Shown here piece after piece: positions 14,080 through 34,544 of a stretch of DNA of 64,000 nucleotides. Where the stretch lies: contig OY740788.1 of NCBI GenBank assembly GCA_963514005.1, forward strand, positions 16,926,001-16,990,000, read 5' to 3'. Below the pieces are notes generated by a model. It ran no database searches. It was given only the letters and a program-made list of their open reading frames with translations, and was not told the DNA's origin. The position numbers and the translations under genes were made by a program. Origin of the DNA: Raja brachyura (lineage: Eukaryota). Each line of letters starts with the position of its first letter. Within the stretch, counting starts at the first letter, position 1.

Positions 14080-15497
14080 CAGATTCAGATTCAGATTCAA
14101 TTTTAATTGTCATTGTCAGTGTACAGTACAGAGACAACGAAATGCATTTAGCATCTCCCTGGAAGAGTGACACAGCAAATGATTTGGATAAATAACAATA
14201 AGTGTCCGGGGGGGGGGGGGGGGGGGGGGGGGTGATTGGCAGTCACCGAGGTACGTTGTTGAGTAGCGTGACAGTCGCCGGAAAGAAGCTGTTCCTGGAC
14301 CTGCTGGTTCGGCAACGGAGAGACCTGTAGCGCCTCCCGGATGGTAGGAGGGTAAACAGTCCATGGTTGGGGTGAGAGAGGTCCTTGGCGATGCTGAGCG
14401 CCCTCCGCAGACAACGCTTGCTTTGGACAGACTCAATGGAGGGGAGCGAGGAACCGGTGATGCGTTGGGCAATTTTCACCACCCTCTGCAATGCCTTCCG
14501 GTCGGAGACAGAGCAGTTGCCATACCAAACTGTGATGCAGTTGGTAAGAATGCTCTCGATGGTGCAGCGGTAGAAGTTCACCAGGATCTGAGGAGACAGA
14601 TGGACCTTCTTCAGTCTCCTCAGGAAGAAGAGACGCTGGTGAGCCTTCTTGATCAGAGTTGAGGTATTGTGGGTCCAAGAGAGGTCGTCGGAGAGGTTGA
14701 CTCCCAGGAACCTGAAGCTAGAAACACGTTCCACCTCCGTACCGTTAATGTGGATGGGGGTGTGCGTGCCGCCCCTGGACTTCCTGAAGTCTACAATGAG
14801 CTCCTTGGTCTTCTTGGAGTTAAGGGCCAGGTTGTTGTCAGCGCACCATGCTGCTAAGTGCTGGACCTCCTCCCTGTAGGCCGACTCATCGTTGTTGCTG
14901 ATGAGGCCAATCACCGTTGTATCATCTGCATACTTGATGATGGTGTTAGTACCATGTACAGGTGTGCAGTCATAGGTGAAGAGGGAGTAGAGGAGGGGGC
15001 TCAGCACACAGCCCTGTGGAACGCCGGTGTTCAGGGTGAGGGTTGAAGAGGTGTGCTTGTCTAACCTAACAGACTGGGGTCTGTTGGTTAGAAAGTCCAG
15101 TATCCAGTTGCAGAGGGAAGGAGCGATGCACAGATTACCGAGTTTGGCGATCAATTTTGATGGTATAATGGTGTTGAATGCTGAGCTGTAATCGATGAAC
15201 AGCATTCTTACGTAAGTGTCTCTGTTGTCGAGGTGAGAGAGGGCGGAGTGAAGTGCCGTTGAGATGGCATCCTCCGTACTCCTGTTCTTGCGGTAGGCAA
15301 ACTGATAGGGATCCAGTGTGGGGGGTAGGCAGCTTTTGAGGTGTGCCAGGACCAGCCTCTCGAAGCACTTGGTGATGATGGGGGTAAGCGCAACTGGGCG
15401 GAAGTCGTTGAGGCTTGCCGCAGTGGAGTGTTTTGGCACTGGCACGATGGAGGTGGTTTTAAGGCACGTGGGGACAACTGCCTGGGCAAGTGACAGG
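14080..15497 (-). mobile_element. Rex1/Babar-type non-LTR retrotransposon, 5'-truncated, young
   Basis: Open RT frame, 3' tail (TGAATC)3, and a possible short TSD (T)CCAT on both sides. Confidence 0.9.
14243..15497 (-). CDS. Reverse transcriptase (C-terminal part of LINE ORF; no native start in window)
   Basis: Uninterrupted ~418 codons: [51 protein letters not shown]. The ORF-track N-terminus (15498-15553) is flanking DNA. Confidence 0.9.
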
Positions 15498-15635
15498 TCC
15501 ATATGCTCATCTATCCCCATATTTCCCCTTTCATCCCTCTTTCCCATTGCCACTGTCCAATTCCATCCATGTCCCTCTGTTCTGTTTTATATTTCACACT
15601 TTTGTCTACTTTTCACCTTCAGCCTTTGTCAGTTA

Positions 15636-18190: not shown

Positions 18191-19244
18191 CTAGACCAAG
18201 TGGGACCCGTTGGGTCCCGTCCCCTCAATGAGCAGTTGCGGGTGTGTGTGTGTGTGGCGGCCTGTGGCGTCACACACACACTAACCATCCCACCCACTCA
18301 CATACTAACCACCCCCCTTGAAATTATATTAATGTTATTCATTCGCCCCTTTTACCCCATCCCCCGCCCTATCCACTCACGAATAACCCCAACTCGCAGG
18401 CGCAGCTAGACANNNNNNNNNNNNNNNNNNNNNNNNNNNNNNNNNNNNNNNNNNNNNNNNNNNNNNNNNNNNNNNNNNNNNNNNNNNNNNNNNNNNNNNN
18501 NNNNNNNNNNNNNNNNNNNNNNNNNNNNNNNNNNNNNNNNNNNNNNNNNNNNNNNNNNNNNNNNNNNNNNNNNNNNNNNNNNNNNNNNNNNNNNNNNNNN
18601 NNNNNNAGGCGGGCAGAGAGACACAGAGAAAGAGAGCATGGGGGACAGAGAGAGAGAGAGGGGGGGTGCAGAGGGAGAGAGGGGAGAACGGGAGAGAGGG
18701 AGATAGGCAGAGAGGGCGGGGGCAGAGAGGAGGGCAGAGAGAGAGAGGACCTGACCCTAGGACCCGTCAGCTCAGTCCTGTCAGATCGGTCCTGCCCCTT
18801 CAACGAGAGCAGATAGGGGGTACGTGGACTCGGCGAGCAGAGCGGGCCCGACTTGCTCGTTCTTTCTGTGCCTTTTGGACCGGGGGCAGGGCAGAGTCTT
18901 GAATAATGTGGGGGAGGGGGGAGAGGTCGGGGAGGAGATATCACTCACAGCGCGAGGAAGAAGGGCACACAGACCCATTGTGACATCATCAGCGAAAGAC
19001 AGTCGTTTTTAAATTCAAAAATTTGTCAGATTTTTGAAGATGTTCAGTAATAACTAGTGAAATAAAACATGAAATGTTCAGATAAGGCGATTTCGGACAC
19101 AACGGGAAAATTCTCTACCGGAATATGTAAAAATTATGTAAATTTACCGTTAGCGCGTCGTTTTTTCGAGAAGATGTGATTATACACAAACACACTAATA
19201 AACACACATCCAAGATCAGACTTTTAAGTATATAGATAGATAGA
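18191..19244 (-). mobile_element. Non-autonomous Helitron, both termini present
   Basis: The minus strand starts A|TCTATCTATCTATATACTTAAAAG and ends with a perfect hairpin GGGACCC-AAC-GGGTCCC, then ACTTGGT-CTAG|T. This gives canonical 5'-TC, 3'-CTAG, an A|T target and no TSD. Confidence 0.85.
18413..18606. other. Assembly gap (run of N)
   Basis: N run inside the Helitron GA-rich tract. Confidence 1.
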
Positions 19245-19782
19245 TTTAGCCTTAGATTGCTCATCACTCAGAAATAACATTTGAAATAACTTACTTGCAT
19301 TTTCACAATTTTTTGTTGACCGTGGCAATATTCCATTATGCTTCCAAACACAAAGAAAACAATATTTCATGGATCGTTTCTGTGGATTAATTGTGAAAAT
19401 TAAAACATTGAAATAATTCTTGAGCTTTAATTTCTAAAATCATTGTTGCTAAATGTTGGTGCTTCTGTTATATTGACTAAATATAAACAGTCTGGATTTT
19501 TATTTCCATTATTACAGTGCCAGTCTGTCAATTGACTGTTTATGCCTGGTTCCATTTTAACCCCAGGTTACATCACTGATGATGTGTTCAGGAGCATCAA
19601 TAGATGTAATTTAATAAATCACTGTGCTGGTGAAACCAGTGGCGACCATAGACTAGTAGACAACCAAGATGACTGGAGAGATAATGGACAGTTCGCAAAG
19701 ACGGCAACCGATGCGGGGCGGGTTGGCAGCACAAGCCGCATCCTCTGACAGGAGGAGAACCAAATCAAGCTACAGGAAAACG

Positions 19783-22700
19783 CATGGAAAAATACCCCCA
19801 GGGGTGCCCGAGAGGGGGGGAGGATGAGCACCTCAATTTGATGGATCAAAGGCTAACGACTAATGGCAATGGACAACTGACTATGAGTATAAAATGCAGA
19901 CGTGGAAAGGTCTGCAAGAACAGCTGAGGCCTGAAGATTCACCAGACCCGGATAAACTGTTTGGAGGGGAGGGAGAGGGAGTGTCACATCGCACAGGTAT
20001 TTTACCTGGTGAGATGCAGGAGGAGCGGGCCCGGATGCACCCCATAGAGCCCAAAGCCTCCAAGTGACGCAACTAGTCCCTCAGAACAGACCTCCAGAGA
20101 AGGTTCGAGTGAAATGGCCACAGGCCTGCAAGACGGCAGTCTGGCATCAGAGGACGTCGACAATGTGCAAGAAGCAACTGTGAAGGGAGACGTGGATCGA
20201 AGGCTGCGGACGATGACGACAATCATCATCAGCCTAGCTGTGGAAAGGTTTGGAGCAGTGGAGAAGAAGCCGGCCAGAACACCTTTCACCTTGAGCCAAC
20301 GAGCAACAAAGATCCACAAGATCCGGCAGGAGCTGAAGTCCCCCAAGAAGCAGTACAAAGAGGCCAGCGAAGAGCAACGTCCCCCCTTGGCTGAGCTGCC
20401 AAACATCTTGAGGAAGAAGCTGATGAACCTCCGTAGAGCTGAGCGGCACCGAAGACGCCGGAAGGAAACCGCCAGGAAGCGAGTATCCTTCTTAGCCAAC
20501 CCCTTCGGCTTCACCAAACAACTGCGAGGGCAGAAGCGCAGTGGGAGTTTGGCTTGCTCTAAGGAGATCGACCGGCACATCCAGACCACCTACAGTGACC
20601 CCGTCAGGCAGCAGGAGCTAGGCCAGTGCAACATCCTGGTAAAACCACCTCCACCCATCAGGGAGTTTGATAGTAGAGAGCCACTCCTAAAAGAGGTCCA
20701 GGACGTTGTGAAGAGAGCAAGATCGGGCTCAGCCCCTGGCCCAAGCAGAGTCCCCTACAGGGTCTACAAGAACTGCCCCTTGTTACTGAAACAGCTGTGG
20801 AAGATCCATAAAGTCATCTGGAGGAGTGGGAAGGTGGCGATTCACTGAAGGAGTCTGGATCCCAAAGGAAGAAGATTCCAAGAAGATCCATCAGTTCAGG
20901 ATCATCTCCTTGCTAAGCGTTGAAGGCAAGATCTTCTTCAGCATAGAGGCGGGGCGGCTAACCAACTTCCACTCCAGCAATGGCTACATCGACAGCTCAG
21001 TGCAAAAGGGAGGCTTATATGGAGTGCCGGGGTGTCTAGAGCACACGCGAGTGGTGACCCAGCTCATCAGAGAAGCCAGAGAGAGAACAAGGGAGACCTG
21101 ATGGTGCTCTGGCTTGACCTGGCCAACGCCTATGGCACCATCCCGCACAAGCTGATCCAGACAGTCATGGCCAAGCATCATATGCCGGGCCAAGTGGCAG
21201 ATCTCATCCTGGACTATTACAACCAGTTCAGCATGAGAGTCTCATCAGGATCAGTAACATCAGAGTGGCACAGACTGGAGGTTGGGATCCATAGGCTGTA
21301 CCATCTCTGTGATCCTTTTTGCCTTGGCGATGAACATGATTGTCAAGTCTGCTGAGCCAGAGTGCCGGGGCCCACGGACCACGTCAGGATTGCGCCAACC
21401 ACCGATCAGAGTCTTCATGGACGACATGACTGTCACCACTGAGTCAGTACCAGGAGGCAGGTGGATCCTGCAGGGATTGGAGAAACTGATTGGATGGGCA
21501 AGGATGAAGTTTAAGCCAGGAAAATCAATGTGACTGGTGCTGAAGAAGGGCAAAGTCATGGACAGGTTCCACTTCAGCATCGAAGGGACACCAATCCCAA
21601 CTGTCTCCGAAAGGCCAGTGAAGAGTCTTGGCAAGGTGTTTAACAGCAGCCTGAAGGATAAAGCATCAGTCCAGGCAACCTGTCACGAGCTGGAGTGCGG
21701 GTTGAGAGAGGTGGACCAACCGGGGCTTCCCAGCAAGTTCAAGACATGGATTTACCAGCATGGTATCCTGCCAAGGATACTCAGGCCACTGCTTGTTTAC
21801 GAAGTCCCAACTCCATCGTAGAGAGATTGGAGAGGAAAGTCAGCAGCTTTCTCAGGGGGTGGCTGCGACTGCCCAGGAGCCTTAGCAGCATCGCCCTTTC
21901 CGGAAATAACACCAAGCTCCAGCTGCCCCTGAAGTCCCTGGAGGAGGAGTTTAAGGTGACTCGGGCCAGAGAGGTGATGTTGTACAGGGACTCCAGCGAC
22001 CCCAAGGAGGCTCAGGCAGGGGTGGAGGTGAAAACTGAGAGGAAGTGGAGAGCCGGCGAGCCGTACTGCAAGTCGAAGTCTCGGATACGCCACAGAGTCC
22101 TGGTGGGAGCAGTGACTTGGTAAGAACTGGAACTGGAGTATCTTCCAAACACCCCAGTTTGACAAGGCTAAGGGGTAGGAGAGGCGCAGGCTGGTCCAGG
22201 AAGAAGTGAGGGCAGCGGTGGAGGAGGAGAGATGTACCAGAGCAGTTGGCTTGAGGCAGCACGGGGGCTGGACAAGGTGGGAGCAGGCCATGGACCGAAA
22301 AGTCACATGGACTGAGCTCTGGCAGGCTGAACCACAGAGCATCAAGTCCCTGGTCCAGGCAGTGTACGATGTCCTGCCCAGCCCATCGAACCTCTTCATC
22401 TGGGGCAAAGCGGAATCTCCAGATTGCCTGCAATGCTCAGGCAAGGGGACATTGGAACACATCCTGAGCTGCTGTCCAAACGCTCTTGGGCAGGGCCGGT
22501 ACACCTGGCGTCACGACCAGGTTCTCAAACACATTGCAGAAGCCATCAGCATGGGAATCAGCAGCTGCAGATGAGCACGGCCCACTACCCAAATGATCAT
22601 CTTCGTGAAGGCCGGAGTGCAGCTGCCAAGAATCACAGCTGCCAGGAATCCGTCAGGAATCCCGGTGACTGCGCAGGACTTGCAGCTTTCTGTGGATCTG

Positions 22701-23093
22701 GTGAAACAGCTGACGTTCCCACAGTGCATTGCGACAACCACCGTGAGGCCTCACATCCTCCTGGTCTCAGAGGCGACCAAAAACATCGGCTTGTTGGAAC
22801 TGATGGTGCCGTGGGAGGACCGTCTGGAGGAGGTCCACGAGAGGAAGAAGACCAAGTGCGAAGAGCTGGTCATAGACTGCCGTAAGCAGCGCTGGAAGGC
22901 AAGGTGTATGTCTATCGAGGTTGGCTGCAGAGGTTTTGCAGGGCAGTCGCTCTACAATGCCTTGAGTGCACTGGGCATCAACGGAAGGGAGAGGAGAAGA
23001 GCCATCAAGAACACCACAAAGGCAGCGGAGAAAGCCTCGAGATGGCTCTGGATCAGGAGAGGAGGTCCATGGGGAGGAGCGAATGCAACCTGA
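19783..23093 (+). pseudogene. Hero-type polyprotein (zinc finger - RT - CCHC knuckle - RLE endonuclease), frameshifted
   Basis: KC..GKVCKN..GLKIHQTR (about 19891-19960), SAPGPS.VPYRVYK, FRIISLLSVEGK, WLDLANAYGTIPH, GCTISVILF, FMDD, CLQCSGKGTLEHILSCC, RHDQV, RPHILL...ELMVPWE, IEVGCRGF. Multiple frameshifts and stops. Confidence 0.9.
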
Positions 23094-23138
23094 ACACAAG
23101 TCGTGGTCTGATCAACCACGGCTGGGTCGCCTGGGTGA

Positions 23139-23195
23139 GGGTGTCTGATGTTGAAAGACCCGAAACACCCAATGACCCCAGGTTACATCATTGAG
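23139..23195 (+). ncRNA. Candidate permuted hammerhead ribozyme in the Hero 3' UTR (the CUGAUGA box is intact only in the 5' repeat, 19576-19582)
   Basis: GGGTGT-C (23139-45) pairs with GAA-ACACCC (23162-70). TGATGT (23146-51) pairs with ACATCA (23185-90 or 19570-75), which in the 5' repeat is followed directly by CTGATGA. Confidence 0.6.
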
Positions 23196-24160
23196 CATCA
23201 GGAGCATCAATAAATGCATTTTTTAATCAAAATTAAGTGTAAGGATTATAAGAATGGCTCTTTTAATCATCAGCTATAACTTCTATACCTCAATGATTCA
23301 TCGCTTAGAATCATATTTTTCCTTAAGTATTTGGAGTGTATTCTTATTTTTCAAATTTATTTGTCTGAATGTTTTATTAGGTTTTACAAGGGGTTTCACT
23401 TTTTGCATTAATTTTATTGGATCTTGAATTTTTCTACTGTGAGGAAGAATTTGTCTACAATAACTAAACTTTTGCAGTGATACCTCTTAATAATTCTGAC
23501 TGCATTCTTCAACATTCTATCGCTTGGATTGAAGTATATTCTTCTTGGTAGCCTCTGTTGTCTTTCATAGTTGCAGCATAATCTTGAGAGTAATTTAATG
23601 TTATGTGATGTTGAAATTTCATGCCTTTTGTTCTTAAATCATGCATGTCTCAGAACAGCACAATTGGTGTTGTGTTCTTAGCTCACTGCCGGTTTTTAGC
23701 ACACTAGTCCAATTGAAGTTTTGATGTACTATAGAAGGGTTCGGTTATTGAACCTATTGTTCAGGTTTGAAGTGCACTTCTCTTTGCTCTTAAACCTAGC
23801 AAGTCTGTGTTCTTATTTTCTCTTGAGCATAAATGCCTATGAAGATGGCTTTGGGTTGCCTACTTAAACCTTTGGAGACCATTTGCTCTTGCAGTTCTCA
23901 AAATGTTGTATTGTAAGAAAATCCAAGATATCTATTATGTGGCAAGTAAGAAATGGCAATTCCCAAGAATGGAGATATTTTACTTGTTGACTAGTTTGCC
24001 TGCCTCCATCTTCTCGGTCTTTTCCCCTTCAATGCATATTAACATGAAAAGATTCAGAAGGTGTTTGAAACGGAGTGAACTTTATACAAATGGGCTTGAT
24101 CATCACCAGCTTCACCTTATTCATGAATACATCTCTTCTCAATAGCCGTAATCATTGTTA

Positions 24161-24488
24161 AGGGCCTGTCCCACTATACGAGTTTACCCAAGAGCTCTCC
24201 CGAGTTTACCCAAGAGCTCTCCCGAATTTAAAAAAAATCAAACTCGTGGTAAGTACATAGAATGTACGTAGCGGGTACGTCGGAGATCGGGACGTCTCTT
24301 AGCGGCTCGTAAAGCTAACGGCAGGTACTCGGGAAACGCGGTAAGCTCGTGAAGTTTTTTCAACATGTTGAAAAATGTCCACAAGAGCCCCGAGTTCCTA
24401 CGAGCGTCTATTACCGTAATTCTCCGAGTTCGAATCAGGGGAAACTCGGGAGAACTCTTGAATTACCTCGTACAGTGGGACAGGCCCT
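24161..24488. mobile_element. PIF/Harbinger-type MITE, complete
   Basis: TTA|AGGGCCTGTCCCACT ... AGTGGGACAGGCCCT|TTA, with a 3-bp TTA TSD. Confidence 0.92.
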
Positions 24489-25861
24489 TTAGGCTAATTG
24501 CTGTTCTTCTAAGCAAACTGTTGACAAACCAAATCATGACAAACAAACTTTTGTTTAAATCTATACGCTCATTAGCCCAATATTGTGCACTGACATTATG
24601 ATGGCATTGGTGCTTTAGGTAGTTCTTCGACTTTACAGATAATTCTGCAGAGTTCCATCTCAGCTTGTTAACTGAGCTTTTACTGGGCGATACTTTATAT
24701 GCCATGCCTGCTTGACCACTGCTGACATTCCTAAGGCGATATCATGCGCCTGTACAAAATACAGTTTCTTCTCACTGACAGCCCTCCTTGCCAGAGGATT
24801 TTGCCAGAGTGGTAATACATGTAGTACTTAGTATTCAGGGATCAGTCTGAAATGAGCAAAATTATCCACAATGCTTTCATCATTTGGGATTGCTGATTTG
24901 GCATTTTAACCTATCATTGACTAATAAGATTAGGGTTAGGGACATTCATGCTGTTCAACAAGGTTAACAAAACCTTCAGACATTTTGTTTCCGTTTTAGT
25001 TGGAGCCAGTATATTTTCAATAAATTGTGAGATCAGGTGAGAGCAAAATAGATGGCATCTTACTTTCTGCAGTATCATTTCCAGTGAAAAACTGTTCACT
25101 CCTTTCTACTTATTCAATTGAGCTGCTGAAAGAATGTGAAGAACTATTTGTGGCCATTTTGACTGTGCTTTGACACAACTGATACTTGTGCAAAAGCCTA
25201 ACTCAATGAAATTCAAAGTTGCCTTGATCAACCATGCTAATTCCCATTCCCAGAGAAGGAACCTGGAAATGTCAAGAAAAGAAAGTAGCACTTATCCTGT
25301 GCACTTCCTGATTAGTTTTCATTTCCCCTCATCATCATTTATCTAACTAACACTGCCAAACATATTCAAATAATGAGTCAAACAGCACTGACTGTAGCTT
25401 AACGTAGAGTAAAAGCAATTATTGTAATTGAGCAATTTAAACCAATTGCAGTTGTGTAAGAATCACTTTAAAATATATTTTGTCACTTAGTCACGAGAGG
25501 ATATGCTAACGGGCCACAAAGCAAGGCTACCCCGTTAGTCTTAAAATGCCATTTTTTTAAAACAAATTATTAAGCTGGTAGAGGTGTTATGAGAGTAGCC
25601 TTGTTAGTTTGATGCAGTGAATTCTGTAGATAACTTTAGAGCACCTGTGGTTGGAGAGGTTGTTTTTCAACCAAGTGAGCACAGTACTCTCCTGAATGAC
25701 GAATAATAAATTCTTAATTTCATTGATCACATTTATTTTGGCAGTGTCAGAAAGCTTTTGAAGATCATTGTTCTTCTCAGAGTTCACATGGGTTGCTTCA
25801 TTTTCAAATGATATGTGAATTGGACGTTACTCCAAACTGTGCCATTTCTAACCTTCTGTTT

Positions 25862-29525: not shown

Positions 29526-30512
29526 TTACGGAGCAGCTCTCAGCACAGCTTCCGCAAACGTTGCGGGGTTAGCCACCAGTTTATTGTAGAACCTTTGAAA
29601 CGTAGATTCATTGGCCCATCCCGCGGTAGCGAGGACATGATCCATGGGCACCTCCATGGCCCTCGCCGCTTAAGTGGATGCAGCCCTGGTAGAATGAGAT
29701 TTTAAAACGTTAGTATCTATACCCGCTGCATCCAGTACTTCCCTGAGCCACCTTGCGATAGTTGAACCAGTCACCCGGTGATGTGGCTTCTTATGGCTGA
29801 TAAATAGCCCCTGTTCCATCTTCCGAATGGCACTTGTATTTTTGATATAGTAGCGAAGATGGGTGACTATGCAGAGGGTGGCGTCTGTGGGATACGCCCG
29901 GAATTCCAACTGCAGCCCTAGAGCACCTTGCCTATGCTGCTTAAGTAATTCTTCGACGAAGAAGGTTACTTTTTGAGGGGTCGAGACCATTCTGTCGAGG
30001 CGCAGTTTCTGTAAAGTCTGCACCCGCTGTGCCGTTGTCAGTGCCATCAGCATTACCACTTTCATGGTAAGTGGTAACTCTGTCATGGGAGACCAGCTTC
30101 TTAATAGGGTCAATACCACCCCAACGTCCCATGTGATGTTATATCTGGGTTGTGGAGGGTTGGTATTAAACACTCCCCTCATGAATTTGAACACCAGCTG
30201 ATTTGACCCCACACCGATGTTGAGGTATGAGGACAGCGCACTCCTGGCGCTATTGATAGCACTGTAGCTGAGACCCTCATTGTAATGAAGGCCCGCCAGG
30301 AATTCCAGGATGTCAGGGATCGTAGCAGAGTTGTACGTTGTAGAAGTCTGTGCGCAGTATGATTCCCATTTTCTGATCTGTGTGAGATACTGCTTTCTTG
30401 TTGATACTCTGCATGATGCGGTGATGAGATCCTTGGCCCTAGGTGAGATCCCAGCCTCCAGAAGTGGTCTTCTTAGAACCTGCAAGCCAACAGGTTTAAG
30501 TGACGATGGCAC
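29526..30512 (-). pseudogene. DIRS tyrosine recombinase (one in-frame stop at 29670)
   Basis: LSYSAINSARSALS, TAQRVQ (R), KSHSTRAA (H-x-x-R), then after the stop ATAGWANESTFQRFYNK (W, catalytic Y). Confidence 0.92.
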
Positions 30513-32207
30513 GGGTGAATTTCCCCAGTAACGTGGTTCGTAACCAATTTAGGGCGTTTTGAAATTTGCACCCATGGGCTTTTGACCATCTGGAGGACCA
30601 CCGGGTACCATGGTTGCGTAGGCCAGTCGGGTATAATCAGTATGCCTGAAGCAGAATCCAATTTGATTTTCTGCAATACCCGACTGATGAGGCAGAATGG
30701 GGGAAATGCATAGCAGAACCATTTCCCCCAATGGAGAGAAAATGCATCCATTGCTACTGCTCGCAGGGTCTGGTTCCCAAGACACATATGTTGGTATCTG
30801 ATGGTTCAACCTAGACGCAAAAAGGTCAATATCTGGTGTACCGAATTTAGCTATTATTTCAGCAAATATTTGCGGGTTCAACATCCATTCGATGTTATCA
30901 TTGAATATACGTGACCTGGTATCCGCCACTGTATTAAGCTTCCCTGGAAGATAGGTTGCTGAGATCCAAATATTCCAGTGCCAAATTGTGTTGACTAAAT
31001 CATCACAAAATACTGACCTGATACCACCCATATGATTTATGTAAGCTACCACCGTGGTATTATCTATTTGAAGACGGACATGTATATGATGTAAACTTGT
31101 GCAATATGCCCATAGCCCATAGAAAACACCTAGCATCTCCAAATAGTTTATCCCTTGTGACTGTAAAAGCGTAAATTCATGAGCATCCCATCTGCCACCA
31201 CAACTGGACACAGTGTCTGTCAGTCACTCCTCACCCTTGGGCGCTTGCGTCGGTTTGTACCACAACTGATGGGCTGGAGACAATGGGTTTATAACAGTCA
31301 CTAATATTGTTAGTCCACCATCTTAGCTCAATTTTTGCCTTTATCGGCATGGGCCTGTCAAAATGTCCAGCATTTGATTTTAATGCTGACATTTTTGCTC
31401 TTTGTACATTTTGATAATGTAGTGGCCCAAATTGTGTAGCAGGAAATGTAGCTACGATTTTCCCAATTACCTTAGCAGTTTGTCGAATAGTCAGTACAGC
31501 AGCGCAAGCAAGGCTGTTACAAGTTTCTTGAATATCAGCTACTTTCCCAGCTGGGATAGTGACAATCATCTGATTCGTGTTAATAGTGAATCCCAAATAA
31601 TCCATGACCTGTGATGGATTGAACTTAGATTTGTCTGGATGGATGACAAATCCCAACTCCTCAAATATTGATATAGTAGCTGCAACTGCCAGCTGAGCCA
31701 ATTCTAAAGTTTCCCCTACTATTTATATATCATCCAAATACGCCATGACGATATGATTTTGTCTCCTGAGGCACGCCAAAATAGGTTTAACGATTTTTGT
31801 AAACAGCCGAGGTGCTGTTGTAATCCCATTGGGTAACGCTTTGTATTGCCATAACTGATCCTTCCAGCCAAATTTCAAGAACTTCCTGTGATGTGTTATG
31901 ATAGGACTGTATAGTATGCATCTTTCAAATCAATGCAGGCCATAAAGCACCCTCTGCTAACTAATTGTTTAGCAGTTTCAAACGTCTCCATTTTGAAATG
32001 GATGTATTGTACAAAAGTATTCAAATGGGTTAGGTCAATGATAATACGACAACCACCATCTTTTTTAGGTCTTGTAAAGATGTTGGACACAAACTCTAAG
32101 GGCTCATGTGTCGTTCTCTCTATCACCCCTTTGGTTTCTAATCGTAAAATTTCTGCATGTCCTGTCTCCATCTCTTTTTGAGAAAGCGCAAACTTGCGAT
32201 GAGGCAC
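30473..32207 (-). pseudogene. DIRS RT - RNase H - adenine-methyltransferase-like polyprotein, frameshifted
   Basis: PKKDGGCRIIIDL, IDLKDAYY, MAYLDD (31730-31747), QTDAS, INYLEM, IDNTTVVAYINHMGG, N.VADTRSR, DIDLFASRLN, DAF..W...YAFPPF. Confidence 0.93.
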
Positions 32208-32265
32208 ATGCTGCGTGGGGGGGAAGTTTGCCTTTAATAAACTCTATTACATAACCCTGAATACT

Positions 32266-33843
32266 TTAACCTTTATAGAAATCTTTAACCTGCTTCGACA
32301 GGTCCTCCCCAAACAGCTGTGTTGGTGGTGGTGTGGTGGAGGTGCGACACAACCCAGCAAACTTTGGGTTGAGGTTGGGCTGAATGGAGCTCTTTTGAAA
32401 ACAATTAATCTCAAACTGTGTGTTACACAGGAGGGCTAATGCATCTTGTTGTTCCTCTGACACATCTGCTCCATCCAGGGCCCTAGCGAACGCCGTTATG
32501 CCCGAAGTGAGTAAATTCAGGATCTTCTGGAGCTTGCCCTCCTGTGCCCTGGTGTTACTACTGATGTTCCCCCAAATCGGCAGGTTGACTTTAGGCACGT
32601 TGAGGGATACACAGTTCGCTGGGGCCTTATATTTTTCCAATGTCTCAGCGACGACATTGTCTTGTAGCTGGTGAGTCGTTAGGTAATTAATACTAGCCGC
32701 TAGTTTGGGATGCAGTGGTTCCCCTACACTGGTTGGCTTCCCAAACTTAGCTACAGCCTCCAGCATGTCTTCAGAGTCTGGAACAGCAGGCTGGTCTTCT
32801 ACCGCTACATCTTCAAAATCACCCATACGCTGACTTCATCTGCTAGCAATAGACGAGGGTGAGACTGAAAGCGGCGGCCTGATCTTACTCCCAGACTGCA
32901 GGGACTCCCGCTCTTGCCGTTCCAGGTCCCTTTGATAGAGCACCTCCACCATCTGCTCCATTCTAGCCATGCGACCGCCGCCGCTACATACGGACGACAG
33001 GTCGACTTCCCCAGGCCCTGCTGAGTCGCTGGGGCTTCTGCCGGTAGATCGCATCTCCACGAGATGCGCTGGCAGGTACTCATCAACACCCGCTCCTGCG
33101 GGGCTGAACGACCTTTGCACGGACAACCTGCTAGTCCACCGTCTTTCGGACCTCAGCGGCATTTTTGCCTGATGGGAAGGCAGAGGAAACGAGTCGGAAC
33201 CGGTCCCCAATACCGGCTCCGCGGTCCTTGCAGGCATGCCATCACCCTTACCCACACGGGTCTGTGATGGCGCATAGCTGGCTTTACCCATAGCAACGGG
33301 GATGCCTAGCCATACTCTGCTGCCACCGGTCTGCGCTCCGGCAGCCTGTTCCGGTGCAGTGCCGGTACCTCCTGCTCCTGCAGGGTATCCTGACGCTCCA
33401 GCAACACGGCCGCCAGCCTGCGACCTCGCAGGTTTCCCCTGCGGCATGTCAACGCCCACCGCAGCAGCGGGGCTCGACTTCAATATGGCTTTTCCCCGGG
33501 TCTGCCCTTGAGGGACCTGTAAAGTAAAAGAGGTACTTGCCGTGCGAGGCACCTTACTCTGTACCTTTTTCCCACCAGCCCTGACTTTGGGCGATGGTGG
33601 GGTGAAGTCAGGGTCTCCTTCCCCCTGCTCCTGTGCGGAATCCCCTCCAAGTGGAAACGGAGGTGAGTCGGCCCCTACCGACTCCATAGGGCCCGACATC
33701 CGCATCTTTTTCCCCGGTCGTACAGGTGCTGCCAGTGCTTCGGTCAGCTCCGAGGAAATTCGCCGCGGTTCGCGGCTCTTGGAAAGTTTTCTTTTTTCCT
33801 CCATCGTTTCTGTAACACAAATGCTACAGAACAACCAGCTCAA
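32266..33843 (-). pseudogene. DIRS gag-like ORF1 (split by a frameshift near 32830)
   Basis: Long open frames at the ORF1 position. GEPLHPKLAASINYLT..YKAPANCVSLNVPKVN..IWG and LFGEDLSKQVK are conserved in copy 3 (56457-56765). Confidence 0.8.
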
Positions 33844-34544
33844 GGTTAATAAAACTTACCAGGAGCCGTCTTTTGAAGGAGCTGTTGGGGAAGCGCACTC
33901 CCCCCCCAGCTTGCCGTTAGAAAATGCGAGCGACGATATGTCGCGCATGCGTGCTGGCGGAGTCTTCACGAAGTCACTCACGTGACTCCGAAGTGCTTTT
34001 TCTGCAAGTTTAGCAACATCACATTGGTGGCTCTCATATGTTTCAGTAAAATTAGTCAGTAAAACAGGCTTGAGTGCCCTGTTTCTCTCACCAGCATGTC
34101 CTTTGCTTGCTTTGCACTTAAATTAAAATTCCATCATTTAAGCAATACTTGGGTTTCTCTCCATTAGCCTAACTGTGTCCTGCAGTCTTTCATTGCGCAA
34201 ACTGCAATTTGTTGATTTAGTAAATAAGAGATTACACCGCCGACTCATGCAGACCATTATGCACCATTTTCTGTCTGCTGCTTCTATGAGTTTACTGGTA
34301 ATTAAGAGAAGGCAGGACATGATTCTATTGCATTTCATCAGTAATTTTCATGAGACAATCGTTTCAATTTTTGCCACTATCAACTCCTGTCCTGCAGTGC
34401 TCAATGGATGATCAGTCACAAGTTTTCCATAAATATATTATTTTATTTAAAATATCATTTGTAGGACAACAAACATATCCGCTATTCAATACATGATACC
34501 ATATATTAAATACATGGAAATTGGAGGGATCTCATTGAAGCTTA

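What the first reader, a model, noticed from the sequence alone, without database searches (positions are those of the whole stretch)
19560..23229. Hero-type retrotransposon with terminal direct repeats and a rearranged hammerhead ribozyme split between its two ends
Seen: the 3' UTR contains GGGUGU-C (23139-45), UGAUGU (23146-51), GACCC-GAA-ACACCC (23157-70) and ACAUCA (23185-90). In the 5' copy of the terminal repeat, ACAUCA is followed by CUGAUGA-UGUGUU (19576-88). These pieces give all hammerhead elements: a 6-bp stem III ending in the GUC cleavage triplet, a 6-bp stem I, CUGAUGA and GAAA boxes, and a weak stem II (GUGUU with GACCC, one mismatch, an extra U after A9). Their order (GUC, GAAA, CUGAUGA) is not any circular permutation of types I-III, so it would be a pseudoknotted topology. 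An extra helix CCUGGG (23130-35)/CCCAGG (23177-82) could brace it. The element's 5' end begins with its own 3' UTR sequence, about 30 nt downstream of the predicted cut. Inference: tandem copies are co-transcribed and the ribozyme in the upstream copy's 3' UTR defines the 5' end of the next unit, producing LTR-like redundancy in a non-LTR element. In this copy the 3' CUGAUGA has decayed (TTGAGC), so a complete core exists only if the two ends pair. Non-circularly permuted hammerheads may already be reported, so novelty needs checking.
Basis: partly seen in the sequence, partly recalled or inferred. Interest (0 to 1): 0.8.

Follow-up and report, generated by a model that had tools for sequence, protein, structure and literature searches.

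The report
Knotted hammerhead ribozyme in Hero retrotransposons
The tail end of a fish jumping gene carries what looks like a self-cutting RNA whose parts are strung together in an unusual, knotted order, which may explain how this element copies itself with repeated ends, although cutting has not been tested and this particular copy is broken.

Summary
19560-23229 is a dead, full-length Hero-like retrotransposon whose 5' end repeats its 3' tail, and every hammerhead motif is where stated. 'Split between two ends' is wrong as biology. Two distant relatives read as DNA (L003, L004) carry all blocks in cis at the 3' end, and 32 of 40 read-through peptides of relatives are compatible with that. 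Only this copy's 3' core has decayed. The order S-G-C is Eckert's type SGC, published only from metatranscriptomes. New here: (1) it sits in retrotransposons; (2) the 'extra helix' is a kink-turn arm, with all stems changed compensatorily between window and L003; (3) stem II most likely forms with an upstream strand (23124-28), perfect in both, not with the bases after CUGAUGA. That breaks a block assumed unbreakable and gives a four-block topology outside the six named permutations. Likely role: cutting tandem or read-through transcripts into unit RNAs, probably re-ligated into circles, giving terminal repeats as proposed for Penelope elements. Cleavage, the stem II choice and family-wide 5' repeats are untested. 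No paper on this turned up in ten searches; the Zebulon paper and Repbase were not readable.

The parts
19560..19621 (+). 5' terminal repeat: copy of the element's 3' tail (23175-23229), starting 30 nt past the predicted cut
   Evidence: 4 differences in 42 aligned bases outside the lesion
19570..19582 (+). stem I 3' strand followed by intact CUGAUGA core (shows what the 3' copy had)
   Evidence: same reading in cis in P0104 and P0095
   Evidence: 3 of 5 Watson-Crick pairs, +0.3 kcal/mol
19595..19599 (+). second copy of the stem I 3' strand, 24 nt downstream of the first; possible off-switch
   Evidence: L003 has its own, different second copy 22 nt downstream
19784..23093 (+). broken single ORF: N-terminal zinc finger (~19886-19950), RT (~20800-21600), CCHC knuckle (~22422-22478), RLE endonuclease (~22746-23060); about four in-frame stops, at least six frame changes
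23100..23122 (+). 8-9 bp hairpin just upstream of the ribozyme
   Evidence: -12.0 kcal/mol; a hairpin of unrelated sequence (-17.7) sits at the same place in L003
23124..23128 (+). proposed true stem II 5' strand (G10.1 at 23124)
   Evidence: only 5 of 5 partner among 169 positions scanned; same register in L003
23130..23138 (+). kink-turn arm, 5' strand (23130-35) and non-bulged strand U-G-A (23136-38)
23139..23145 (+). block S: stem III 5' strand and C17; predicted cut after 23145
   Evidence: position 17 reads as C, A or U in 39 of 40 peptides, never G
23146..23151 (+). stem I 5' strand
   Evidence: two compensatory changes inferred from peptides
23157..23170 (+). block G: stem II 3' strand (23157-61), G12-A13-A14 (23162-64), stem III 3' strand (23165-70)
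23171..23182 (+). kink-turn bulge (23171-73), G1b-A2b-3b (23174-76), arm 3' strand (23177-82)
   Evidence: bulge codon 3.05 bits of entropy, next codon D or E in 37 of 40
23185..23199 (+). stem I 3' strand (23185-90) and decayed core: 9 nt where the 5' copy has 14
23200..23229 (+). 3' tail; no poly(A), no unambiguous target-site duplication
   Evidence: best flank match is a 5-nt AT-rich word that also occurs inside the repeat

Best explanation
Hero-type RLE retrotransposons carry one complete, non-circularly permuted hammerhead ribozyme in cis at their 3' end; this window holds a dead copy whose 3' core has decayed. SHOWN by comparison (about 0.93): the cleavage block, the GAAA block and the CUGAnGA block lie in that order and keep their stems. 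Stem III runs into a kink-turn that folds the chain back to stem I. INFERRED (about 0.65): stem II is made with a strand upstream of the cleavage block, so the backbone is broken between A9 and G10.1, and the far ends of stem I, stem II and the kink-turn arm meet in a second three-way junction that replaces the usual loop-loop contact. INFERRED (about 0.85): it cleaves after position 17 (23145 here). INFERRED (about 0.55): cleavage of tandem or read-through transcripts gives cut-to-cut unit RNAs. The 5' product stays held by about 17 base pairs, so the ends can re-ligate into a circle, which also restores the stop codon where the ORF ends at the cut. Reverse transcription starting in the tail and running more than once round gives an insertion whose 5' end repeats the 3' tail, as seen here.
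For: DNA: L003 has the full core with the same layout and different, complementary sequence in stem I (5 of 6 pairs differ), stem III, the kink-turn arm and the upstream stem II, while G10.1-C11.1, CUGAUGA, GAAA and the kink-turn GA pairs are kept. L004 has the S-G-C order with a conventional stem II and a flank helix like Eckert's. Shuffles: 0 of 3000 each. Chance of the upstream 5-bp match at that register: 0.0016 (window) and 0.0009 (L003); duplex -7.1 against +0.3 and -2.4 kcal/mol for the downstream partners. Peptides (codon inference): 32 of 40 are compatible with CUGA after stem I. N7 varies. 4 of 4 peptides with D-to-V in the stem I 5' strand have H-to-Q in the 3' strand against 0 of 14 others, and 2 of 2 with V-to-D have F against 0 of 10 others. 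19 of 88 ORFs end exactly at the cleavage-triplet codon. Repeat divergence (4 of 42) fits the ORF's decay (about four stops; 3.7-5.6 expected at 3-4.5%), which fits one insertion event. Circle-templated, more-than-unit copying is proposed for Penelope elements (PMC4209133, passages).
Against: No cleavage data. Only three DNA sequences were compared, and only two have the four-block layout. Peptide evidence is indirect, selected by similarity to the window up to the end of stem I, and covarying peptides are kin (probably one event each). I read of no natural hammerhead with a broken A9-G10.1 backbone; only a bulged base there is documented. The base before the upstream strand can also pair with G12 in both sequences, and L003's lowest-energy fold traps the GAAA block that way, as an inhibitor would. 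The downstream partner keeps its G in 11 of 12 peptide rows, and its energy was computed only on this decayed copy. The 5' repeat was seen in this one locus only (one search found no relative of the junction). In a Penelope element, ribozyme cleavage was dispensable for insertion in vitro (PMC11167929, passages).
Confidence: 0.62

Rival explanations
1. Plain type-SGC hammerhead with a weak stem II formed by the bases after CUGAUGA; the upstream strand is an attenuator that keeps most transcripts uncut.
For: Downstream G kept in 11 of 12 peptide rows; upstream strand can extend onto G12; hammerheads with a single G10.1-C11.1 pair or no helix II still cleave (PMC544870; PMC3088659; passages); L004 is plain SGC.
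Against: In L003 it needs a 3-nt insertion plus a bulge, beyond the one or two inserted bases that PMC10085705 says are known. The upstream helix is far more stable and would always be present before cleavage.
Confidence: 0.27
2. The ribozyme cuts a linear tandem transcript and so defines the next unit's 5' end, without circles; the 3' end comes from an uncut downstream ribozyme.
For: The 5' end lies 30 nt past the cut, inside the stretch this model allows. A second copy of the stem I strand in two lineages could make cutting partial. Ribozyme cleavage can promote translation initiation (PMC13725137, passages).
Against: No poly(A) tail or defined 3' signal. Head-to-tail arrays with longer upstream parts (recalled for Zebulon, not read) would not fit.
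Confidence: 0.35
3. The fold is kept as a protein-binding 3' signal for target-primed reverse transcription and does not cleave.
For: 19 of 88 ORFs would lose their stop codon on cleavage; cleavage was dispensable in a Penelope element in vitro.
Against: CUGAnGA and GAAA are kept while N7, position 17 and stems vary, across relatives as distant as 33% protein identity.
Confidence: 0.08
4. The core exists only when the two ends of one element pair.
For: True of this one copy's sequence.
Against: Complete in cis in L003 and L004 and in the window's own subfamily (P0104, P0095). The copy is dead, and the 3' stem I strand would compete in cis.
Confidence: 0.02
5. The 5' repeat is a locus accident: insertion next to an older 60-nt 3' stub, or a template jump.
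For: Seen once; one search found no relative of the junction; 4 of 42 differences has wide error.
Against: Divergence fits the same age; the stub runs straight into the 5' leader; P0116 shows two ribozyme units 56 codons apart.
Confidence: 0.2

Closest known systems
Type-SGC hammerhead ribozymes (HRIMA-1 and SGC variant; Eckert et al. 2023, PMC10085705; main text read, supplement searched by terms)
   Same: S-G-C block order; short linker between stems I and II; conserved core. L004 matches closely, with a 3-bp stem I and a helix between the flanks of block C.
   Different: The paper reports none of its SGC RNAs in genomes of known organisms and assumes block C is unbroken. Here: eukaryotic retrotransposon, kink-turn arm ('kink' and 'k-turn' give 0 hits in its supplement), and stem II probably from an upstream strand.
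Penelope-like elements with hammerheads in pseudo-LTRs (PMC4209133, PMC11167929; passages)
   Same: Retroelement with terminal repeats from partial tandems and a hammerhead in the repeat; circle model proposed.
   Different: GIY-YIG endonuclease and telomerase-like RT; type I or minimal hammerheads working as dimers.
R2 and other non-LTR elements with HDV-like ribozymes (PMC6765202, passages)
   Same: RLE superfamily (best solved relatives are R2 proteins, E 1e-44); ribozyme frees the element from a co-transcript.
   Different: HDV-like fold at the 5' end and rDNA targeting; here a hammerhead at the 3' end.
HERO clade / Zebulon of pufferfish (clade: PMC4640811, passages; Zebulon partial tandem arrays: recalled, paper not held)
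   Same: Single ORF with RT and RLE, mostly non-specific insertion; closest named hits are fish and amphioxus proteins.
   Different: No ribozyme is mentioned for the clade in anything I could read.
Animal non-LTR retrozymes (10.64898/2026.07.22.740005, passages)
   Same: Short tandem units with hammerheads, like P0116.
   Different: Type I hammerheads derived from Penelope elements; 'hero' has 0 hits in that text.

Membership tests
Hammerhead ribozyme | CUGAnGA, GAAA and UH core bases | tested here: met
   L003, L004 and the window's 5' repeat plus 3' end; not met by the window's 3' copy alone
Hammerhead ribozyme | Stems I and III flanking the core, with covariation | tested here: met
Hammerhead ribozyme | Stem II opening with G10.1-C11.1 | tested here: met
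   5 of 5 pairs with the upstream strand in window and L003; conventional 3 bp in L004
Hammerhead ribozyme | Site-specific self-cleavage after H17 | not testable with these tools
   no assay
Types I-III (circular permutations) | Block order CGS, GSC or SCG | tested here: not met
   only the SGC order was found among six; no Rfam match
Type SGC (Eckert 2023) | Order S, G, C with a short stem I to stem II linker | tested here: met
   linker 5 nt in window and L003, 2 nt in L004
Type SGC (Eckert 2023) | Stem II strand directly after CUGAnGA (unbroken block C) | tested here: inconclusive
   met in L004; weak in window and L003, where an upstream strand pairs better
Type SGC (Eckert 2023) | Helix between the two flanks of block C | tested here: not met
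   present in L004 (6 bp); in window and L003 the 5' flank is used by the kink-turn arm
Kink-turn | Canonical stem, 3-nt bulge (RNN), tandem G-A pairs, second helix (as described in PMC12510878) | tested here: met
   window and L003 (L003's first bulge base is C); absent in L004
Kink-turn | Folds into a kink, binds L7Ae-family protein | not testable with these tools
   sequence pattern only
HERO clade | Single ORF: zinc finger, RT, CCHC, RLE | tested here: met
HERO clade | RT phylogeny with labelled HERO references | not tested
   no labelled references on hand; that Q76IN2_TAKRU (P0057) is the fugu HERO element is recalled
Penelope-like elements | GIY-YIG endonuclease | tested here: not met
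   C-terminal domain is RLE-type

The most novel reading that the evidence does not exclude
Hero retrotransposons use a four-block hammerhead outside all six named permutations: the backbone is broken between A9 and G10.1, stem II is supplied by an upstream strand, and a kink-turn closes a cage of two three-way junctions. It cleaves and re-ligates unit RNAs into circles, so an R2-related non-LTR clade retrotransposes from a circular template, convergently with Penelope elements, and a plain SGC form survives in a distant relative (L004).
Probability: 0.35. Interest if true: 0.93.

Novelty: new variant of a known kind. Interest (0 to 1): 0.85.

Why it matters
Non-circular hammerheads were reported only from uncharacterised environmental sequences, with no known host or role. 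This places them in a widespread animal retrotransposon family, where many genomic copies allow covariation and biochemical tests. If the upstream stem II is right, the three-block rule behind the six-permutation scheme is incomplete, which would explain why a RefSeq-wide search missed these and would imply more hidden ribozymes. It also gives a testable mechanism for terminal repeats in a non-LTR clade related to R2, the basis of current RNA-guided insertion tools, and a natural kink-turn could let an L7Ae-type protein regulate cleavage.

Tried and rejected
Rfam, window and loci: no hammerhead match. No second copy of the element in the window. Plasmid and phage collections: no match. Protein search with the P0043 tail gave 1 hit among 2 candidates. 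Protein search with the 5'-repeat frame found no candidate among proteins of 34-109 residues, so a family-wide 5' repeat stays unshown. The organisms behind the 37 unnamed peptides could not be looked up. L001 and L002 end before the 3' UTR. MAFFT misaligned the four motifs, so pairs were tabulated by core register instead and no covariance model was built. Nested-structure folding cannot give the knotted fold and returned other folds for L003 and L004. No clear target-site duplication. Rejected: assembly artefact for the repeat (the copies differ); the split-ribozyme reading; membership of types I-III or of Penelope elements.
Full report
OBSERVATION. The 5' repeat 19560-~19621 matches the 3' tail 23175-23229 and nothing else in the window. 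Between them lies one broken ORF from about 19784 to 23093 with a zinc finger, RT, CCHC knuckle and RLE-type endonuclease. Its C-terminal domain has 88 relatives at E up to 1e-20 among 542 candidates, the named ones from bony fishes and amphioxus; the nearest solved structures are R2 proteins. I count about four in-frame stops and at least six frame changes. The HERO label rests on architecture and on a recalled identity of P0057; I built no tree. There is no poly(A) tail and no clear target-site duplication.

IS THE RIBOZYME SPLIT? No. The 3' copy has 9 bases where the 5' copy has 14, and the new bases duplicate a neighbouring 8-mer, which looks like one slippage lesion. Two lines of evidence show the family is complete in cis. 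First, DNA. A scan of the genome collection gave 4 loci from 45 candidate stretches; two reach the 3' end. L003 (contig CAMQSH010000302.1; inferred to be eukaryotic host DNA in a bin) and L004 (JAAELP010000067.1; 33% protein identity) each hold exactly one descriptor hit, in S-G-C order only, beside the end of the ORF homology. 0 of 3000 shuffles of each region hit, and the whole window gave none in six orders on both strands. The thresholds for the shuffles were set at the observed stem lengths. Second, predicted proteins that read through the 3' UTR: 37 plus 3 (P0069 left out because it ends before the GAAA block). 32 of these 40 are compatible with CUGA right after stem I: 14 end at a histidine there, 11 read on in a second frame, 5 read through, 2 use the third frame; 8 end earlier or diverge. 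P0104 and P0095 read like this window's 5' repeat directly after the S and G blocks. This is codon inference, stop identities are assumed, and the set was chosen by similarity to the window up to stem I.

HAMMERHEAD-LIKE CONSTRAINT. Position 17 reads as C (21), A (16) or U (2) in 39 of 40 and never as G; this is modest evidence. N7 varies while its neighbours do not. Stem I shows two compensatory changes: 4 of 4 against 0 of 14 for pair 3, and 2 of 2 against 0 of 10 for pair 6 (one of the four was missed by the script's anchor and read). Kin share these, so each is probably one event. Between window and L003, 5 of 6 stem I pairs differ and all remain Watson-Crick.

KINK-TURN. L003 has the same pattern with a different arm. 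In peptides the bulge codon is hypervariable (3.05 bits) and the next codon is D or E in 37 of 40. A kink would turn the chain back to stem I, which follows after only 1-2 bases (inference). L004 lacks it.

STEM II. In both window and L003 the only perfect 5-bp partner among 169 and 171 positions scanned lies upstream, one G before the kink-turn arm (23124-28; L003 963-67). Three of five pairs differ between them while G10.1-C11.1 is kept. Chance at that register is 0.0016 and 0.0009; I noticed it in L003 and confirmed it in the window. A four-block descriptor finds only these two sites in the window and four loci. The upstream W-V codons are kept in 34 of 40 peptides, though they were part of the query. 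If this helix is the working stem II, the chain is broken between A9 and G10.1. PMC10085705 (main text read) explicitly assumes that block is unbroken, which would explain why its RefSeq search found nothing like this. Against: the base before the strand can also pair with G12, and L003's lowest-energy fold traps the GAAA block. The downstream G is kept in 11 of 12 rows. Very weak stems II can work (PMC544870, PMC3088659; passages). Only a bulged base at that point is documented in what I read (PMC4209133, passages). I put the four-block form at about 0.65. L004 is plain SGC, with a helix between the flanks of block C as in the paper.

FURTHER SHARED FEATURES. Both window and L003 have a stable hairpin just upstream and a second copy of their own stem I 3' strand 24 and 22 bases downstream of the first. 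The latter changes with stem I, so it probably pairs with the stem I 5' strand as a decoy or after cleavage (inference).

HOW IT LIKELY WORKS. Transcription through a tandem or partial tandem, or read-through from outside, gives RNA cut after position 17. The upstream product remains paired through stem II, the arm and stem III (about 17 bp), which favours re-ligation. In 19 of 88 relatives the ORF's last codon is the cleavage triplet, and the stop is inferred to be the first three bases of stem I, so a cut RNA has no stop unless rejoined. Copying more than once round a circle gives a 5' end that repeats the tail, the model proposed for Penelope elements. The two repeats differ at 4 of 42 bases outside the lesion, matching the ORF's decay and so one insertion event, though weakly. 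One copy cannot separate circle from linear models, and I could not show the 5' repeat in any other copy. P0116 holds two ribozyme units 56 codons apart, a hint of short tandem derivatives. In one Penelope element cleavage was not needed for insertion in vitro (PMC11167929, passages).

NOVELTY. Ten searches of the held library found no paper linking HERO elements to a hammerhead, and 'type-SGC' occurs only in PMC10085705. Its supplement was searched by terms, not read through. Passages of PMC13580325, PMC7650587, PMC2684134, PMC4640811, PMC10162972, PMC13725137, PMC12510878, PMC6765202 and 10.64898/2026.07.22.740005 showed no such link; that preprint's supplements were closed. Subscription papers, Repbase and the Zebulon paper (its partial tandem arrays are recalled) were not seen, so the terminal repeat itself is probably known and the ribozyme may be noted somewhere I could not read.

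VERDICT. New variant of a known kind; interest 0.85.

Noticed in passing
window 23108-23114: The loop of the upstream hairpin is one base away from the CUGAUGA core and contains a 6-nt palindrome; peptides suggest it is kept in fish relatives, but L003 has a 4-nt loop instead.
   Followed up: no
window 19564-19612: The 5' repeat folds into a long hairpin (-14.2 kcal/mol for 19560-19620) that hides the core; a possible off state.
   Followed up: partly
window 19602-19606 and L003 1051-1055: The same short AGAUG word follows the second stem I copy in both lineages regardless of stem sequence.
   Followed up: no
P0116 (no DNA held): Two ribozyme-bearing units 56 codons apart, like a short tandem, retrozyme-style derivative.
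   Followed up: partly
L003 1-2666: An internally deleted Hero-like copy among tRNA-Ser and tRNA-Thr genes; apparently eukaryotic DNA inside a bacterial genome bin.
   Followed up: partly
L001, L002: Nearly identical Hero fragments in two different bacterial isolate assemblies; probably shared contamination.
   Followed up: no
L004 852-1260: A distant RLE element with a plain SGC hammerhead about 340 nt past the stop, followed by a TAG microsatellite; host unknown.
   Followed up: partly
window 29670-33855 (-): Tyrosine recombinase ORF (Pfam integrase and SAM-like domains) with neighbouring long ORFs; probably a DIRS-type retroelement.
   Followed up: no
window 14243-15586 (-): Another LINE-type RT fragment (RVT_1 E 1e-33).
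   Followed up: no
window 24160-24489: Small element with 52-nt inverted arms (87% complementary), MITE-like.
   Followed up: no
window 22575-23090: The endonuclease domain is 72% identical to an Astyanax protein, high for a decayed copy; horizontal transfer is possible, but the host is not known.
   Followed up: no
window 18413-18606: 194-base assembly gap about 950 bases upstream of the element; it does not touch the finding.
   Followed up: yes
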